A program made the position numbers and the translations under genes. A DNA stretch of 42,232 bases from an uncultured Methanosarcinales archaeon (GTDB lineage Archaea; Nanobdellota; Nanobdellia; Woesearchaeales; JAGWAF01), in assembly GCA_964529655.1 (NCBI GenBank), contig CAZGZA010000002.1:10705-52936 (forward strand). The letters are read 5' to 3'. Under the pieces are notes generated by a model. It did not search any database. It saw nothing but the letters and a program-made list of their open reading frames with translations, and was not told the DNA's origin. This document shows positions 11,498-42,232 of the stretch, in pieces (position 1 is the first letter of the stretch; each line of letters begins with the position of its first letter).

Positions 11498-11779
11498 CTG
11501 CCTCCCTACTGTAAAATCCGAGATTTTACAGTCCCTCAAATTTGTTCCAAATTTGAGTTGTCTTGGCTTTGCCAAGATTAAATTTTCTCCCCCTCGCTTG
11601 CGCAGGGGGAGAAAATACCTCAAAATCAGAGATTTTGCGGTACTTCAAATTTAGCCAGAACCCTTTCTTGATTTTGAGGTACTGCAAATTTAGCGAAAAG
11701 CTAAATTTGAAGTATAACCCAACTTTGTTCTGAACAAAGTTGAGCAGGGAGGCAGCAGATGAATAATAACAGCAGCAAA
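11498..11779 (-). repeat. 282-bp multi-hairpin element, copy 1 (perfect inverted copy of 18152-18433)
   Basis: Its reverse complement matches 18152-18433 at both ends on direct comparison. The two track ORFs crossing the copies share an identical 85-residue stretch. Confidence 0.9.
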
Positions 11780-14718: not shown

Positions 14719-14793
14719 AGCGAGGTAGGGCAGACAGGAGTGCCCGGGGGGCTCATAACCCCCAGGTCGGTGGTTCAAATCCACCCCTCGCTA
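14719..14793 (+). tRNA. Initiator tRNA-Met (CAT)
   Basis: Hand-folded cloverleaf: acceptor AGCGAGG/CCTCGCT with A1:U72, anticodon arm GGGGG-CTCATAA-CCCCC (a G:C run typical of initiators), T arm GGTGG-TTCAAAT-CCACC. Confidence 0.9.
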
Positions 14794-14933
14794 TTTTTAT
14801 GTTTGTAGTTTGTGGGACTTCATGAAGTGAATGTCCCATTCTTTTTGATCAAACTTTTCGTTAGTTCATGAGCGCGCTCATGAACTAAGCCACGCATGGC
14901 CGTAAAAGTTTGGTGAATATCCACCTCTCGTTA
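14794..14933 (+). repeat. tRNA-iMet trailer cassette ending in a degenerate copy of the tRNA 3' end
   Basis: CCACCTCTCGTTA (14921-14933) matches the tRNA 3' end CCACCCCTCGCTA (14781-14793) at 11/13. It is preceded by AAAAGTTTGGTGAATAT. It contains the module 14814-14860, shared with the tRNA-Pro trailer, and a 28-nt perfect palindrome at 14861-14888. Confidence 0.75.
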
Positions 14934-18053: not shown

Positions 18054-18137
18054 AAAAATCCACTGTAGGTGGATTTTTAGGATGCCAAAGACGAGCCAGC
18101 ATCTACACCGTTAAGATAGGGTTTTAGGCTCGTCTTT
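18054..18137. repeat. Two-hairpin element, copy 2 (see 6589-6674)
   Basis: AAAAATCCACTGTAGGTGGATTTTTAGGATGCC followed by AAAGACGAGC..GCTCGTCTTT. It lies 14 nt from the 282-bp repeat. Confidence 0.6.
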
Positions 18138-18151
18138 GTGCATAAAGATAA

Positions 18152-18433
18152 TTTGCTGCTGTTATTATTCATCTGCTGCCTCCCTGCTCAACTTTGTTCA
18201 GAACAAAGTTGGGTTATACTTCAAATTTAGCTTTTCGCTAAATTTGCAGTACCTCAAAATCAAGAAAGGGTTCTGGCTAAATTTGAAGTACCGCAAAATC
18301 TCTGATTTTGAGGTATTTTCTCCCCCTGCGCAAGCGAGGGGGAGAAAATTTAATCTTGGCAAAGCCAAGACAACTCAAATTTGGAACAAATTTGAGGGAC
18401 TGTAAAATCTCGGATTTTACAGTAGGGAGGCAG
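18152..18433 (+). repeat. 282-bp multi-hairpin element, copy 2
   Basis: Perfect inverted copy of 11498-11779. The terminal pairing is GCTGCCTCCCT / AGGGAGGCAGC, with about seven internal stem-loops. Confidence 0.9.
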
Positions 18434-20210: not shown

Positions 20211-20245
20211 AGATTAATAAGGCAAAAAGGGTATTTATATTTTGG

Positions 20246-20278
20246 GATTTTAGTCCAAAAAAATGCGCTGGCCGGGAT
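20246..20278 (-). repeat. Duplicate of the tRNA-Gly(TCC) 3' end plus its trailer
   Basis: GATTTTAGTCCAAAAAAATGCGCTGGCCGGGAT (20246-20278) matches 20333-20364 with a 1-nt indel. A CCAGATTTTT..AAAAATCTGG hairpin lies between the two copies. Confidence 0.85.
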
Positions 20279-20349
20279 ACCCACCAGATTTTTAAAAAAA
20301 TCTGGTAAAAACATTGGACATAAAATCTTTGAGATTTTAGTCCAAAAAA

Positions 20350-20420
20350 TGCGCTGGCCGGGATTCGAACCCGGATAATCAGCTTGGAAGGCTGAAGTCA
20401 TGCCATTAGACCACCAGCGC
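20350..20420 (-). tRNA. tRNA-Gly (TCC)
   Basis: Hand fold: GCGCTGG..CCAGCGC acceptor, anticodon arm TCAGC-CTTCCAA-GCTGA, T arm CCGGG-TTCGAAT-CCCGG. Confidence 0.9.
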
Positions 20421-20606: not shown

Positions 20607-20680
20607 GGGGCTGTGGTCTAGCTTGGTATGATACACGCATGGGGTGCGTGTGATCGGGAGTTCAAATCTCCCCAGCCTCA
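20607..20680 (+). tRNA. tRNA-Pro (GGG)
   Basis: Acceptor GGGGCTG/CAGCCTC, anticodon arm ACGCA-TGGGGTG-TGCGT, T arm GGGAG-TTCAAAT-CTCCC. Confidence 0.85.
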
Positions 20681-20929
20681 TTTGGAATTAAAGCTGTAGC
20701 GCAGGTTTAATTCCAGCTTTTTACCAGATTTTTACCGAAAAATCTGGTGGTAATCTCCCCAGCCCCAGTTATTTGTTTGTAGTGGGTAATTCTTGGGACT
20801 TCACGAAGTGAATGTCCCATTCTTTTTGATCAAACTTTTCGCCAAAACACTCAAAAATCCATTAAGATTTTTGGTGTCCTAAAAATTCCCGGAATTTTTA
20901 TGAGTTTGGTGAATATCTCCCCAGCCTCA
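20681..20929 (+). repeat. Two tandem tRNA-Pro trailer cassettes, each ending in a copy of the tRNA 3' end
   Basis: ATCTCCCCAGCCCCA (20753-20767, 1 mismatch) and ATCTCCCCAGCCTCA (20915-20929, exact) both match the tRNA at 20666-20680. Confidence 0.85.
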
Positions 20930-23526: not shown

Positions 23527-24545
23527 ATACTAGCATTAGAGGGAGTTGACAAGAATAACGCAGACTTGCTGATTAATGCTATAATAGTAAGCAAGTCTGC
23601 GGAATGTACAAGAATGACAAACAATCCATTAATAAATATTGATAAAATCAAGAGCAGGATTTATACTATTAGAAGCCTACAAGTAATGCTCGATGCAGAT
23701 CTTGCAGAGCTTTATAATGTAGAGACAAAAACATTAAATCAAGCAGTTAAAAGAAACAGTGAAAGATTTCCAAAAGAGTTTATGTTTCAAATAGCTCAAG
23801 AAGAGTTTGATAATTTGAAGTCACAATTTGTGGCCTCAGGTGCAAAAGATTTAAGGTCACAAAATGTTACCTTAAAAAACAGAAGAGGGCATCACCGGAA
23901 GTATCTTCCATATGTTTTTACAGAGCAGGGAGTTGCAATGCTTTCAGGAGTCTTAAAAAGCAACACTGCGGTAAAGATAAGCATACAAATAATGAGCGCA
24001 TTTGTCGCAATGAGGCAGTTTATCTATTCAAATGCCCAAATATTTTATAGGTTAAATGTTGTAGAAAAAAAGCAAATAGAATATGACAATAAATTTGATG
24101 AAATATTCGATGCCATACAAAGCAAAGATATAGTCCCTGAGAAAGGAATATTTTTTGATGGGCAGATATTTGATTCATACCAATTTGTTTCTGGCTTAAT
24201 TAGAAGCGCTAATAAGTCCATTATCCTTATTGATAATTATATAGATGATTCTGTATTGACTCTATTCAGCAAGAGAAATAAAAATGTGCAAGCCACTATA
24301 TTCACTAAAGAGATTTCCAAGCAATTAGCTCTTGATTTAACCAAATACAATTCACAATACCCATCAATCGAAGTAAAAGAGTTTAAACAGTCGCATGATA
24401 GGTTTCTTATAATAGATAATAAGGATGTTTACCATTTTGGGGCATCATTAAAAGATTTAGGCAAAAAGTGGTTTGCATTCTCAAAATTTGACAGGGAAGC
24501 AGTTAAGCTGCTGGATAAGCTGGGGTTGAAATGAAAGAGGGGTAT
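23527..24545 (+). mobile_element. Candidate inserted cassette carrying an ORF6N-domain gene, bounded by duplicated glycosyltransferase 3' ends
   Basis: It is flanked by the direct repeats 23411-23526 and 24546-24658. No integrase or transposase is present. Confidence 0.45.
23614..24534 (+). CDS. ORF6N (KilA-N-like) DNA-binding domain protein with a C-terminal PLD-like degenerate HKD region
   Basis: IRSLQVMLDADLAELYNVETKTLNQAVKRNSERFPKEFMFQ is the ORF6N signature. The C-terminal HDRFLIIDNKDVYHFGASLKDLG resembles an HxK-x4-D...GS motif with K replaced. I placed the start at MTNNPL. Confidence 0.7.
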   Translation: MTNNPLINIDKIKSRIYTIRSLQVMLDADLAELYNVETKTLNQAVKRNSERFPKEFMFQIAQEEFDNLKSQFVASGAKDLRSQNVTLKNRRGHHRKYLPYVFTEQGVAMLSGVLKSNTAVKISIQIMSAFVAMRQFIYSNAQIFYRLNVVEKKQIEYDNKFDEIFDAIQSKDIVPEKGIFFDGQIFDSYQFVSGLIRSANKSIILIDNYIDDSVLTLFSKRNKNVQATIFTKEISKQLALDLTKYNSQYPSIEVKEFKQSHDRFLIIDNKDVYHFGASLKDLGKKWFAFSKFDREAVKLLDKLGLK

Positions 24546-31295: not shown

Positions 31296-31439
31296 TGGGC
31301 CCATCCAGATACCTACCAGATTTTTTAGAAAATGCACAAAAATCTAAAATATTTTTGGCATCCTGGAAATCCGCAGATTTCCATGAATCTGGTAAAAATA
31401 TGCGACATAAAATCCTTCTGGGATTTTAGTCGCAAAAAC
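31296..31439 (-). repeat. tRNA-Val trailer cassette ending in a copy of the tRNA 3' end
   Basis: TGGGCCCATCCAGAT (31296-31310) matches TGGGCCCAACCGGAT (31440-31454) at 13/15. The hairpin GACATAAAATCC..GGATTTTAGTC is at 31404-31431. Confidence 0.75.
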
Positions 31440-31511
31440 TGGGCCCAACCGGATTTGAACCGGTGACCTTCGCCTTGTAAGGGCGACGTTCTGCCGCTGA
31501 ACTATGAGCCC
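31440..31511 (-). tRNA. tRNA-Val (TAC)
   Basis: Sense GGGCTCA..TGGGCCC acceptor, anticodon arm TCGCC-CTTACAA-GGCGA, T arm ACCGG-TTCAAAT-CCGGT. Confidence 0.9.
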
Positions 31512-31546
31512 AATGAAGTTTTAACGTGCTTGATTCTCCCAAAAAA

Positions 31547-31704
31547 TCTGGGCCCACGGGGATTTTCACAAGATTTTTACCAAAGCACAAAAATCCCAGA
31601 GGATTTTTGGCTCCCAAAAAACTTTTGGTTTTTTGTGGAAATCTTGTAAAAAGTGGGCGACATAAAATCCCTTCAGGATTTTAGTCCCTCTAAACTTTGA
31701 AATC
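31547..31704 (-). repeat. tRNA-Ile trailer cassette ending in a copy of the tRNA 3' end
   Basis: TCTGGGCCCACGGGGATTT at 31547-31565 is identical (19/19) to 31703-31721. The hairpin is at 31659-31686. Confidence 0.85.
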
Positions 31705-31824
31705 TGGGCCCACGGGGATTTGAACCCCAGACCTTCGGCTTTCCTAGCGCCGAAAGCGGCCGTATAAGACCGACGCTCTAACTGCCCGAAAGTTTTAGCT
31801 TCCTCCAGGCTGAGCTATGGGCCC
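31705..31824 (-). tRNA. tRNA-Ile (TAT) with two introns (D-loop and canonical 37/38)
   Basis: Removing 31782-31804 (23 nt) and 31741-31762 (22 nt) gives a 75-nt cloverleaf, GGGCCCATAGCTCAGCCTGGTTAGAGCGTCGGTCTTATAAGCCGAAGGTCTGGGGTTCAAATCCCCGTGGGCCCA. The anticodon loop is CTTATAA. Confidence 0.7.
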
Positions 31825-31868
31825 GATTGTTATACCTAAATTGTTTATACTTTTTAAATATTGTTAAG

Positions 31869-31977
31869 TGCAACAGCCGGGATTTTCACCAAACTTTTTT
31901 TGACAAAAGGTTTGATCAAAAGCAGCGACATAAAATCCCTACAGGATTTTAGTCGCAAACACGACCAACACATTCTA
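31869..31977 (-). repeat. tRNA-Gly(GCC) trailer cassette ending in a copy of the tRNA 3' end
   Basis: TGCAACAGCCGGGATTT (31869-31885) matches TGCGACAGCCGGGATTT (31978-31994) at 16/17. The hairpin is at 31927-31954. Confidence 0.8.
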
Positions 31978-32048
31978 TGCGACAGCCGGGATTTGAACCC
32001 GGGTTCCCACCGTGGCAGGGTGGAGTCCTACCACTAGACTACTGTCGC
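31978..32048 (-). tRNA. tRNA-Gly (GCC)
   Basis: Sense GCGACAG..CTGTCGC acceptor, anticodon arm CCACC-CTGCCAC-GGTGG, T arm CCGGG-TTCAAAT-CCCGG. Confidence 0.9.
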
Positions 32049-32053
32049 ATATA

Positions 32054-32156
32054 TGCCCCTGACGGGACTTTCAGATTTCAGTCAAACTGAAAACTTTTGA
32101 ACCCATGTCACTGCCTCGAAAGGGCAGTATGATTGACCGGACTACACCACAGGGGC
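32054..32156 (-). tRNA. tRNA-Glu (TTC) with an intron in the T-loop
   Basis: Sense GCCCCTG..CAGGGGC acceptor, anticodon arm CTGCC-CTTTCGA-GGCAG. The T stem ATGGG/CCCGT is interrupted by ~26-28 extra nt (about 32070-32097) inside the TTCAAA..GT loop. Confidence 0.75.

Positions 32157-41763: not shown

Positions 41764-42232
<469 letters not shown>

What the first reader, a model, noticed from the sequence alone, without database searches (positions are those of the whole stretch)
31296..31994. Each tRNA in the Gly-Ile-Val cluster is trailed by a hairpin cassette that ends in a second copy of that tRNA's own 3' end
On the minus strand the order is tRNA-Glu, tRNA-Gly(GCC), cassette, tRNA-Ile, cassette, tRNA-Val, cassette. 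Each cassette is 109-158 bp. It begins right after the tRNA with a T-rich stretch and a near-identical hairpin, which in sense reads GACTAAAATCC-N4/5-GGATTTTATGTC (plus-strand 31404-31431, 31659-31686, 31927-31954). It continues with a long-range helix of the type TTTTTACCAGATTT...AAAAATCTGGTG or CAAACCTTTT...AAAAGTTTGGTG. It ends with the T-loop 3' part, T-stem 3' strand, acceptor 3' strand and discriminator of the tRNA it follows. The matches are Val 31440-31454 vs 31296-31310 (13/15), Ile 31703-31721 vs 31547-31565 (19/19) and Gly 31978-31994 vs 31869-31885 (16/17). The copied segment is tRNA-specific while the sequence just before it is cassette-specific. The junction therefore always falls in the T-loop. 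The same architecture recurs at all three other tRNA loci in the window, so chance is excluded. I do not know a described archaeal element with this structure. One reading (inference) is a family of miniature tRNA-targeting insertion cassettes, where the repeat is a leftover attL/attR-like duplication but no integrase is present. Another is relics or alternative 3' exons of very large T-loop introns. A third is a processing or termination device that mimics the tRNA 3' end.
Basis: partly seen in the sequence, partly recalled or inferred. Interest (0 to 1): 0.88.

Follow-up and report, generated by a model that had tools for sequence, protein, structure and literature searches.

The report
Hairpin cassettes duplicating tRNA 3′ ends
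In this Woesearchaeota (DPANN archaeon) genome piece, almost every tRNA gene is followed by a small two-hairpin DNA cassette that ends in a second copy of that tRNA's last 15 or more bases; the cassettes come and go between close relatives, are related to real tRNA T-arm introns, and may show how such introns arise.

Summary
Six of the seven tRNA genes in the window are trailed by 86-162-nt cassettes; tRNA-Pro has two in tandem. Each cassette has a bulged-U hairpin (HP1) followed by oligo-T, a second helix closing variable arms, a GTGRRW tail, and a copy of tRNA positions 59-73 (13-15 of 15 bases; no or 1 of 5000 shuffles per tRNA give this).

The cassettes are absent from orthologous tRNA-Met and tRNA-Gly(GCC) sites in relatives. 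Pro has one cassette in a relative and two here. HP1 cassettes also follow stop codons of two protein genes in other Woesearchaeota, again ending in a copy of the gene's 3' end. Reversed HP1 sits inside genuine T-arm introns of two other tRNAs.

The cassette tail (GG-TGAA-WAT-T-stem strand) matches the 3' splice-site half of local T-loop bulge-helix-bulge (BHB) introns.

Best reading (about 45%): a non-autonomous, intron-related insertion element that leaves the target's 3' end on both sides. The distal copy is a decaying footprint. No enzyme or insertion mechanism was identified. No match was found in Rfam, viral contigs, phage or plasmid collections, or in my literature searches.

The parts
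32054..32156 (-). tRNA-Glu(TTC) with a 28-nt T-loop (59/60) BHB intron at 32068-32095. It has no cassette. The intron resembles the start of an A-type cassette.
   Evidence: The intron aligns 16/19 to the Gly-TCC cassette start, shuffle p=0.0055. The ortholog in L005 has no intron.
31978..32048 (-). tRNA-Gly(GCC)
31884..31977 (-). Gly(GCC) cassette body: HP1 at 31925-31956, helix 2 at 31905-31921 paired with 31884-31899, tail GGTGAAA
   Evidence: Absent from the orthologous Gly-Ile junction in L005.
31869..31883 (-). distal copy of tRNA-Gly(GCC) positions 59-73 (14/15; C>T)
31705..31824 (-). tRNA-Ile with an anticodon-loop intron and an extra D-loop insert (31788-31803)
31564..31704 (-). Ile cassette body: HP1 at 31655-31688, helix 2 at 31639-31652 paired with 31564-31578 (CAAGA/TCTTG, a compensatory variant), tail TGTGAAA
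31544..31563 (-). distal copy of tRNA-Ile positions 59-73 (31549-31563, 15/15) plus 5 nt of duplicated trailer
   Evidence: (D4)
31440..31511 (-). tRNA-Val(TAC)
31311..31439 (-). Val cassette body: HP1 at 31402-31433, helix 2 at 31385-31398 paired with 31311-31326, tail GGTAGGT
31296..31310 (-). distal copy of tRNA-Val positions 59-73 (13/15, degenerate)
14719..14793 (+). tRNA-Met(CAT)
14794..14933 (+). Met cassette (B type): hairpin B at 14814-14837, helix 2 at 14842-14860 paired with 14901-14918, tail GGTGAAT, distal copy at 14919-14933 (13/15)
   Evidence: The orthologous site in L133/L134 is empty.
20350..20420 (-). tRNA-Gly(TCC)
20264..20349 (-). Gly(TCC) cassette, the minimal form: HP1 at 20316-20343, helix 2 at 20296-20311 paired with 20279-20293, tail GGTGGGT, distal copy at 20264-20278 (15/15)
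   Evidence: The ortholog in L132 has a T-loop intron instead and no cassette.
20246..20263 (-). restart of the cassette after the distal copy (T7 plus the HP1 5' arm only), fused to the RimK promoter flank; probably a recombination breakpoint
   Evidence: (D12)
20607..20680 (+). tRNA-Pro(GGG)
20681..20767 (+). Pro cassette 1 (proximal, newer): hairpin C at 20684-20714, A-type helix 2, tail GGTGGTA, copy at 20753-20767 (14/15; keeps the C71 seen in relatives)
20768..20929 (+). Pro cassette 2 (distal, B type, orthologous to the single cassette in L132): hairpin B at 20795-20818, tail GGTGAAT, copy at 20915-20929 (15/15)

Best explanation
The cassettes are members of a lineage-restricted family of small, non-coding, non-autonomous insertion elements. 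They colonise the T-arm and 3' end of tRNA genes, and occasionally the 3' end of protein genes, in some Woesearchaeota.

Shown:
- Each unit has a sequence-conserved hairpin with one bulged U (HP1: ..GAC-stem-loop-stem-U-GUC..), normally followed by T4-T7. A second helix closes a variable set of small arms. A purine-rich tail GTGRRW follows.
- The unit is flanked by direct repeats made of the target gene's own last 15-60 nt.
- Units are present, absent, or differ in number at orthologous sites in close relatives. Where a tandem pair can be compared with a relative (tRNA-Pro), the extra unit lies on the tRNA-proximal side.

Inferred:
- Insertion happens at the DNA level at the universally conserved T-loop (between positions 58 and 60). 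It leaves a complete gene 3' end upstream and the displaced or duplicated 3' end downstream, as in Campbell-type integration or a long staggered-cut duplication.
- In the forward orientation, HP1 plus oligo-T would stop transcription. Only insertions that keep a full 3' end upstream of the element would therefore survive. This would explain why every cassette is preceded by an intact tRNA.
- The distal copy is then a silent footprint that decays by C>T changes.
- The tail abuts T60/C61 of the distal copy and can pair with T54-R57. Tail plus distal copy therefore reproduce the 3' half of a T-loop (59/60) BHB intron. Read-through transcripts could be spliced, and loss of the proximal copy would turn a cassette into a real T-loop intron.
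- In the reverse orientation, the same hairpin module persists inside true T-arm introns.

The enzyme or process that moves the units is unknown.
For: Architecture and non-chance repeats.

Selection on pairing:
- In HP1, 94% of cells are paired, 4 pairs change on both sides, and 0 of 500 shuffles reach the covariation score. Eight core pairs are invariant in 9 copies from at least 5 genomes.
- Helix 2 variants are CCAGA/TCTGG, CAAGA/TCTTG, CAAAC/GTTTG and CGAAC/GTTCG. Hairpin B is GGGAC/GTCCC here and GGGAT/ATCCC in L132.
- A covariance model built on A-type hairpins also scores the window's two B-type hairpins (Met, Pro-2).

Presence and absence:
- L005 has tRNA-Gly(GCC) and tRNA-Ile 2 nt apart with no cassette.
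- L133/L134 have tRNA-Met followed after about 20 nt by the next gene.
- L132 has one Pro cassette against two here.

Not tRNA-specific: L001 and L003 have stop codon, HP1, a short helix, then a second copy of the gene's 3' end including a stop codon. Nine of the 12 nucleotide differences are synonymous or stop-to-stop.

Link to introns:
- The tail is GG/TGAA/WAT/T-stem strand in 5 of 8 cassettes, with variants TGGG, TGGT and TAGG. Real T-loop introns end TGAA-AGT or CGAA-AGT.
- Reversed HP1 lies inside the 53/54 intron of tRNA-Tyr (L004) and inside a 115-nt T-loop intron in L003. Both spliced forms are accepted by ARAGORN, and the two introns are homologous at p about 0.001.
- The tRNA-Glu intron matches a cassette start at 16/19 (p=0.0055), and it is absent from the ortholog.

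No mobility gene in the window.
Against: - No transposase, integrase or reverse transcriptase was found, and no autonomous parent element.
- The duplicated length is variable (15, 18, 20-22, 32, about 26 and about 57 nt). There are no terminal inverted repeats. No known transposition chemistry fits.
- The same cassette family at different tRNAs, each with a matching tRNA-specific repeat, is hard to produce by site-specific recombination.
- RNAfold pairs the purine-rich tail with the cassette's own T-run, extending helix 2, rather than with the T-loop. The BHB resemblance could therefore be incidental.
- The terminator role of HP1 plus oligo-T is untested, and one intron with reversed HP1 still has a T5 run in sense.
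- The rest of this genome could not be retrieved. The whole family rests on about 15 copies.
Confidence: 0.45

Rival explanations
1. Functional giant T-loop introns or alternative 3' exons. Read-through pre-tRNAs pair their 5' strands with the distal copy. The splicing endonuclease then removes the proximal 3' end plus the cassette, which may be released as a circular RNA. The distal copy is a used 3' exon.
For: The tail has the register GG-H'(TGAA)-3-nt bulge-T-stem strand, the same as real 59/60 introns. H' pairs 4/4 with T54-R57 in 6 of 8 cassettes. With the proximal strand blocked, the RNA folds as a cloverleaf using the distal copy. Most distal substitutions keep pairing as G-U. Multiple DPANN lineages have endonucleases carrying the L3 loop, which has been associated with more disrupted tRNA genes (PMC5829648).
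Against: The tRNAs are contiguous and most are followed directly by an oligo-T run. The 5' splice site would lie in a multiloop with only a 2-4 bp outer helix. The Val distal copy has an A-A mismatch in the T-stem and a 3/4 H helix. The substitutions are nearly all C>T, which AT-biased neutral decay also predicts. The protein-gene cassettes (L001, L003) have no helix to form a BHB. The minimum-free-energy fold pairs the tail with the T-run.
Confidence: 0.15
2. Ordinary scars of integrase-mediated integration. Viruses or plasmids integrated at the T-loop sublocation of tRNA genes, producing attL and attR identity blocks from the T-loop to the 3' end. Most of each element was later deleted.
For: One complete plus one partial tRNA copy is the known result of mobile-element integration (PMC9897764; PMC3293823). 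The identity block runs from the T-loop to a few nt past the 3' end. In the protein-gene cases the two copies differ mostly by synonymous changes, as expected when one copy is imported with the element.
Against: Near-identical cassette bodies of about 100 nt sit at Met, Pro, Gly (two), Ile and Val, each with its own matching repeat. Independent deletions would not converge on the same two-hairpin unit. There is no integrase in the window. The cassette motifs are absent from viral, phage and plasmid collections. The tail does not carry the T-stem 5' mimic expected in an attP.
Confidence: 0.12
3. A host-selected termination, insulation or processing module. HP1 plus oligo-T ends tRNA transcription or stabilises 3' ends, and the 3'-end copy is a by-product or a decoy for 3'-processing enzymes.
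For: Forward HP1 is followed by T4-T7 within 3-5 nt in all 9 tRNA-linked copies. HP1 sits 2-4 nt after stop codons in L001 and L003. L005 has HP1 downstream of tRNA-Ile with no copy. The HP1 core is invariant.
Against: This does not explain the gene-specific repeats, the tandem arrays, the rapid gain and loss, or HP1 in reverse orientation inside introns. Relatives manage without it.
Confidence: 0.1
4. Guide-RNA genes. The cassette is an RNA scaffold (omega-RNA- or crRNA-like) with a 15-18-nt 3' guide identical to the neighbouring gene's 3' end. It would serve an RNA-guided nuclease, recombinase or repressor encoded elsewhere.
For: The layout is a structured scaffold of 70-145 nt followed by an unpaired 15-22-nt gene-specific segment. 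In L001 the first 18 nt next to the scaffold are identical and differences start beyond that point.
Against: No TnpB, IscB, Cas or IS110-like gene is present in the window. There is no Rfam match. The guide would match the intact adjacent gene, giving self-targeting. Older copies carry mismatches inside the supposed guide (Met, Val). The homology extends to about 57 nt in L001.
Confidence: 0.05
5. No dedicated machinery. The cassettes spread by replication template switching or microhomology-mediated repair between tRNA loci. The polymerase would leave at the T-run and return at the shared ATCC of the T-loop/T-stem, helped by hairpin-induced stalling.
For: The repeats start at the universally shared A59-T60-C61 and often include the T-run. 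The cassette tail resembles the sequence just upstream of the repeat in each target: GGTGAAW against GGTTCAA, and L003 TTGGGTGAAG against TTGGGTTAAA. The duplication length is variable. Cassettes also appear to mediate an inversion of the Gly/Pro pair.
Against: Inter-locus template switching at 4-5-nt microhomology is rare. It does not explain the mostly synonymous divergence of the two copies at protein genes, nor the strong conservation of the HP1 core.
Confidence: 0.1

Closest known systems
Integration of mobile elements into tRNA genes, T-loop sublocation (attL/attR partial tRNA duplication; Williams 2002 and Reiter 1989 as cited in PMC9897764; Caldiarchaeum model of tRNA intron gain, PMC3293823)
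   Same: An intact tRNA plus a displaced partial 3' copy in direct repeat. The identity block runs from the T-loop to just past the 3' end. Presence and absence differ between relatives. Sugahara et al. also link this process to tRNA intron gain.
   Different: The inserted DNA here is 70-150 nt, non-coding and without an integrase. One family occupies many different tRNAs and also protein genes. Tandem arrays occur. The right end mimics a BHB 3' splice site.
Archaeal non-canonical BHB introns at T-loop position 59/60, and proposed intron transposition among tRNAs
   Same: The junction position is the same and the 3' end signature is GG-TGAA-(3 nt)-T-stem strand. The HP1 hairpin occurs in real T-arm introns of related archaea. 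Intron-like sequences are shared between different tRNAs.
   Different: The tRNA gene is not interrupted, because a full 3' end and oligo-T precede the intron-like body. Only a weak 5' half of the BHB can form. The same element is found after protein-coding genes.
MITEs and REP/PATE-type palindromic elements (IS200/IS605-derived, with subterminal imperfect hairpins)
   Same: Small, non-coding, hairpin-rich, multi-copy, intergenic at gene 3' ends, and recently gained or lost. From my own recollection, not tested here, the conserved single bulged base in the hairpin resembles hairpins recognised by HUH transposases.
   Different: There are no terminal inverted repeats, no fixed short target duplication, and long gene-specific direct repeats. 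No TnpA, TnpB or RAYT was seen. The window does hold a classical MITE (282 nt, with inverted terminal repeats), but it is unrelated in sequence.
Casposon / Cas1-type integration at tRNA 3' ends, and C-terminal displacement arrays (Rhs/CDI orphan tips). These are analogies from my own knowledge.
   Same: A 15-nt duplicated block at the tRNA 3' end in several cassettes. Growth of tandem arrays is polarised towards the gene, with older 3' ends pushed downstream.
   Different: No inverted terminal repeats and no Cas1. The duplication length is not fixed. There is no cargo.

Membership tests
Integrase-type integrative element (att duplication in tRNA) | Direct repeats comprising the 3' part of the target tRNA flank the element | tested here: met
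Integrase-type integrative element (att duplication in tRNA) | The element encodes, or lies next to, a tyrosine or serine recombinase | tested here: not met
   Pfam scans of 30 window ORFs found none. The rest of the genome was not available.
Integrase-type integrative element (att duplication in tRNA) | One element family targets one att sequence | tested here: not met
   The same cassette types sit at Met, Pro, Gly-TCC, Gly-GCC, Ile and Val, and at two protein genes.
BHB (bulge-helix-bulge) tRNA intron | The insert interrupts the mature RNA sequence and must be removed | tested here: not met
   All six tRNAs are contiguous and are scored as complete by ARAGORN and Rfam.
BHB (bulge-helix-bulge) tRNA intron | hBHBh' motif: two 3-nt bulges separated by a 4-bp helix and flanked by helices | tested here: inconclusive
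   The 3' half is present (T-stem with the distal copy, 3-nt bulge WAT, 4-bp H with T54-R57) in 6 of 8 cassettes at 4/4 and in 2 of 8 at 3/4. The outer helix at the 5' site is only 2-4 bp by my manual pairing from the junction table (not computed). The minimum-free-energy fold prefers tail-to-T-run pairing.
BHB (bulge-helix-bulge) tRNA intron | Spliced in vivo by EndA and RtcB | not testable with these tools
   No RNA data. An RtcB gene is present in relative L005.
MITE | Terminal inverted repeats and a short target-site duplication of fixed length | tested here: not met
   By reading the sequences (no separate test), the cassette ends (T-run plus HP1 on one side, GTGRRW tail on the other) are not inverted repeats. 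The duplications are 15 to about 57 nt.
MITE | Small, non-coding, multi-copy, polymorphic between relatives | tested here: met
IS200/IS605-derived PATE / REP | Subterminal imperfect hairpins, insertion 3' of a fixed 4-5-nt target, no duplication, cognate HUH transposase | tested here: inconclusive
   Hairpins with a bulged base are present. The T-loop TTCRA could be the fixed target, but the gene-specific duplication is not expected. No TnpA or TnpB is in the window.
Split-tRNA 3' half gene | The matching tRNA lacks its own 3' part, and the leader is complementary to the trailer of a 5' half | tested here: not met
   The adjacent tRNA is complete. Helix 2 is intramolecular.
Diversity-generating retroelement (TR/VR pair with a downstream hairpin) | Differences between the repeats are confined to adenines of the template repeat; reverse transcriptase nearby | tested here: not met
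   The L001 differences are T/C, T/C, A/G, C/T, T/A, G/A and G/A. No reverse transcriptase is in the window.
Any Rfam RNA family | Covariance-model match at or near the gathering score | tested here: not met
   Only tRNA matches. The cassettes give chance-level hits.

The most novel reading that the evidence does not exclude
The cassettes are snapshots of how archaeal non-canonical (T-loop) tRNA introns are born and move. A mobile hairpin element integrates at the universally conserved T-loop. Forward-oriented copies survive only with a duplicated 3' exon upstream, giving the cassette state. Loss of that proximal copy, or insertion in the other orientation, yields a spliceable BHB intron, as in tRNA-Glu here and in the HP1-bearing introns of L003 and L004. 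Read-through transcripts of the cassette state would be spliced to the distal exon, releasing a circular RNA that contains the whole element plus one exon copy.
Probability: 0.22. Interest if true: 0.85.

Novelty: new variant of a known kind. Interest (0 to 1): 0.7.

Why it matters
How archaeal tRNA introns at non-canonical positions arise and spread between tRNA genes is unresolved. The only concrete model links it to integration of mobile elements.

This locus shows, within one clade, three states that share one hairpin family: tRNAs with empty sites, tRNAs with cassettes, and tRNAs with true T-loop or T-arm introns. The cassette end already has the 3' splice-site geometry. That makes the question testable with small-RNA, circular-RNA and population data.

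Even if the cassettes prove to be only selfish DNA, they are an undescribed kind of element that duplicates gene ends in DPANN archaea. They reshape tRNA operons by adding T-runs, splitting polycistrons and probably mediating an inversion. They also create partial tRNA copies that can confuse annotation.

Tried and rejected
- **Rfam:** gathering and permissive scans of the window and loci gave nothing but tRNA and rRNA.
- **Genome and metagenome pattern scans for hairpin A:** only 4 hits, all used.
- **Viral-contig scans:** hairpin A strict, hairpin B and helix 2 gave zero hits. The relaxed hairpin A pattern gave only unrelated sequences.
- **blastn against phages and plasmids:** no match.
- **Retrieving the rest of this genome through exact-protein look-ups:** failed.
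- **CRISPR repeat, C/D or H/ACA guide, and K-turn readings of HP1:** rejected from the sequence. It is a single unit, a sense rather than antisense copy, and has a 1-nt bulge.
- **Degenerate tandem tRNA duplicate:** rejected, because cassette bodies resemble each other and not their own tRNA.
- **DGR, split tRNA and casposon readings:** rejected or unsupported (see the membership table).
- **The claim that distal-copy substitutions prove selection for pairing:** dropped. They are almost all C>T and fit neutral AT-biased decay.
- **Bacterial promoter and terminator scan:** uninformative for an archaeon.
Full report
**What the window is.** It is an ordinary chromosomal stretch of a DPANN archaeon. 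It has about 40% G+C and the start of an archaeal 16S rRNA at 41764-42232. It encodes housekeeping genes: FtsZ, AlaRS, SMC, CDC48, RNase HII, adenylosuccinate synthetase and others. The best named homologues are from Candidatus Woesearchaeota or Nanoarchaeota. No integrase, transposase, reverse transcriptase or Cas-like protein is encoded in it.

- On the minus strand the order is tRNA-Glu (32054-32156, with a T-loop intron), tRNA-Gly(GCC), tRNA-Ile (two inserts) and tRNA-Val.
- The last 15 nt of each tRNA recur downstream at 13/15 to 15/15. This holds for Val, Ile, Gly(GCC), Met and Gly(TCC), and twice for Pro.
- A copy that good appeared in 0 of 5000 shuffles for five tRNAs and 1 of 5000 for Pro.
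- The Ile repeat is 22 nt at 100%. The Gly(TCC) repeat continues 17-18 nt past the tRNA into a restart of the cassette.
- Cassette motifs occur nowhere else in the window.

**Anatomy.** All eight cassette bodies (seven here, one in a relative) fold the same way.
- First comes a trailer, usually T-rich.
- Hairpin 1 follows. It has a basal GAC/GUC stem, a single bulged U on the 3' side and a variable upper stem.
- T4-T7 follows within 3-5 nt.
- A long-range helix 2 closes zero to three small arms.
- A purine-rich tail GTGRRW comes next.
- The unpaired copy of positions 59-73 ends the unit.

Three hairpin-1 types exist:
- Type A: GGAC-UAAAAUCC...
- Type B: GGGAC-UUCA...UGAA-U-GUCC.
- Type C: a different hairpin, in Pro cassette 1.

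A covariance model built on A-type copies also scores the window's two B-type hairpins at 24-27 bits, so A and B are one family.

Pairing is under selection.
- In nine A-type copies from at least five genomes, 94% of cells pair and four pairs change on both sides. No shuffle reaches the covariation score. Eight core pairs never vary.
- Helix 2 shows CCAGA/TCTGG, CAAGA/TCTTG, CAAAC/GTTTG and CGAAC/GTTCG.
- Hairpin B is GGGAC/GTCCC here and GGGAT/ATCCC in L132.

**Gain and loss.** Closest relatives were reached through CDC48, RimK and RNase HII homologues.
- MAG GCA_053531995 has the same Glu-Gly(GCC)-Ile cluster. The genes are 17 and 2 nt apart, there are no cassettes, and tRNA-Glu has no T-loop intron. 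Only a variant HP1 lies about 45 nt after tRNA-Ile.
- The same genome has tRNA-Met followed after about 20 nt by the next gene.
- MAG GCA_053532575 has tRNA-Pro(GGG) with one B-type cassette ending in an exact copy plus 7 nt of duplicated trailer. Its tRNA-Gly(TCC) carries a real T-loop intron instead of a cassette.
- In the window, Pro has an extra cassette on the tRNA-proximal side.
- In a still closer relative (L131) the RimK gene follows a tRNA-Pro 3' end, whereas here it follows the Gly(TCC) cassette. The divergent Gly/Pro pair has therefore been inverted, probably between the oppositely oriented cassettes. This would explain the truncated cassette restart at 20246-20263.

**Not tRNA-specific.** Exact-pattern scans of the genome and metagenome collections found only four further hairpin-A copies.
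- Two of them (L001 and L003, other Woesearchaeota) have HP1 starting 2-4 nt after the stop codon of a protein gene. The short cassette ends in a second copy of the gene's last roughly 57 or 26 nt, including a stop codon.
- Nine of the 12 nucleotide differences between the copies are synonymous or stop-to-stop.
- This suggests both copies evolved under coding constraint, as when one copy arrives with the element. The numbers are small.
- The motif TAGAGG to the left of HP1 is shared by these two cases and by the Ile cassette. The new stop codon may therefore belong to the element.

**Link to introns.** The other two hits (L002, L004) lie on the antisense strand of a tRNA-Tyr(GTA) gene with three introns.
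- In-silico splicing gives a tRNA that ARAGORN accepts.
- HP1 sits, reversed, in a 92-nt intron at 53/54. By manual inspection of the sequence, this intron can form a relaxed BHB (CCCC/GGGG with bulges GGA and AAT).
- The covariance model found another reversed HP1-like hairpin inside a 115-nt T-loop intron of a tRNA in L003. Its spliced form is also accepted.
- The two introns are homologous over about 65 nt (p about 0.001).

Real T-loop introns in this clade end ...TGAA-AGT or CGAA-AGT directly before the T-stem 3' strand. The four bases pair with T54-R57 as the central BHB helix (window tRNA-Glu, L003, L132 Gly).

The cassette tails have the same register: GG, then TGAA (or TGGG, TGGT, TAGG), then a 3-nt WAT, then C61. 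Pairing with the T-loop is 4/4 in six of eight cassettes.

The 28-nt tRNA-Glu intron, absent from the ortholog, matches the first bases of the Gly(TCC) cassette at 16/19 (p=0.0055).

**Caveats on the BHB reading.**
- RNAfold prefers to pair the tail with the cassette's own upstream T-run. It also misses the central helix in the genuine Glu intron, so thermodynamics does not decide the matter.
- The outer helix at the would-be 5' site is only 2-4 bp by my manual pairing.
- Distal copies carry almost only C>T changes plus one disruptive change in Val. That keeps G-U pairing, but neutral AT-biased decay predicts the same pattern.
- The protein-gene cases cannot form a BHB.

**Interpretation.** The best-supported reading is a non-autonomous, intron-related insertion element. 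It leaves the target's 3' end on both sides, and the distal copy is a footprint.

I infer that orientation decides the outcome.
- Forward HP1 plus oligo-T would terminate transcription. Only insertions with a complete 3' end upstream would survive, giving cassettes.
- Reversed copies can persist as spliceable introns.

The mobility mechanism is unknown. Classical integrase, MITE, IS200/605, casposon, DGR, split-tRNA and guide-RNA models each fail at least one defining feature or remain untested (see the membership table).

**Comparison with what is known.** Partial tRNA copies from integration of mobile elements are well known (PMC9897764). An integration model for tRNA intron gain exists (PMC3293823). 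Multiple DPANN lineages have splicing endonucleases carrying the L3 loop, which has been associated with many disrupted tRNAs (PMC5829648).

I found no description of roughly 100-nt hairpin cassettes that duplicate gene 3' ends. There is no Rfam family for them, and no match in viral, phage or plasmid collections.

**Verdict.** This is a real feature that is not explained by anything already described. It is a new variant of tRNA-targeted insertion, with a credible but unproven link to the origin of T-loop introns. Interest is 0.7.

Noticed in passing
window 11498-11779 (+) and 18131-18412 (-): A 282-nt MITE-like repeat in two 100%-identical inverted copies. It has 10-nt terminal inverted repeats (CTGCCTCCCT/AGGGAGGCAG) and internal AAAATC..GATTTT hairpins. 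It is unrelated in sequence to the cassettes and shows that recently active small elements exist in this genome.
   Followed up: partly
window 31788-31803 (-), inside tRNA-Ile: tRNA-Ile has an extra insert of about 16-22 nt in the D-loop region (GGAAGCTAAAACTTTC) that the ortholog in L005 lacks. It is probably a second, recently gained small intron.
   Followed up: partly
window 20241-20263 and L131 1-60, L132 6480-6540: The RimK promoter flank is joined to a tRNA-Gly(TCC) cassette here but to a tRNA-Pro 3' end in L131 and L132. The divergent Gly/Pro tRNA pair therefore appears inverted, with a breakpoint inside hairpin 1.
   Followed up: partly
L005 18907-19025 and 19443-19556: A structured G+C-rich repeat of about 120 nt (82% identical) flanks the whole Glu-Gly-Ile tRNA cluster in the relative. 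The downstream copy follows the HP1 variant and a helix-2-like TTTTGATTGAACTTTT. Its nature is unknown.
   Followed up: partly
L004 208-503 (-) and L002: tRNA-Tyr(GTA) has three introns (37/38, 53/54 and T-loop) totalling 224 nt. In L002 the 5' 25 nt are replaced by other sequence next to an NN gap. This could be an assembly gap or a split gene.
   Followed up: partly
L003 10287-10640 (-): Consecutive tRNAs in this Woesearchaeote carry T-loop introns ending TGAA-AGT. One of them (115 nt) holds a reversed HP1-like hairpin.
   Followed up: yes
window 31825-31868 (-): About 45 nt with TATA-like A/T boxes lie between the Gly(GCC) distal copy and tRNA-Ile, whereas in L005 the two tRNAs are 2 nt apart. 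The insertion seems to have split a co-transcribed tRNA pair and supplied a new promoter-like stretch.
   Followed up: no
window 23566-24534 (+): An ORF with an ORF6N (KilA-N-like) DNA-binding domain. This domain is often phage- or mobile-element-associated. It is the only such hint among otherwise housekeeping genes.
   Followed up: no
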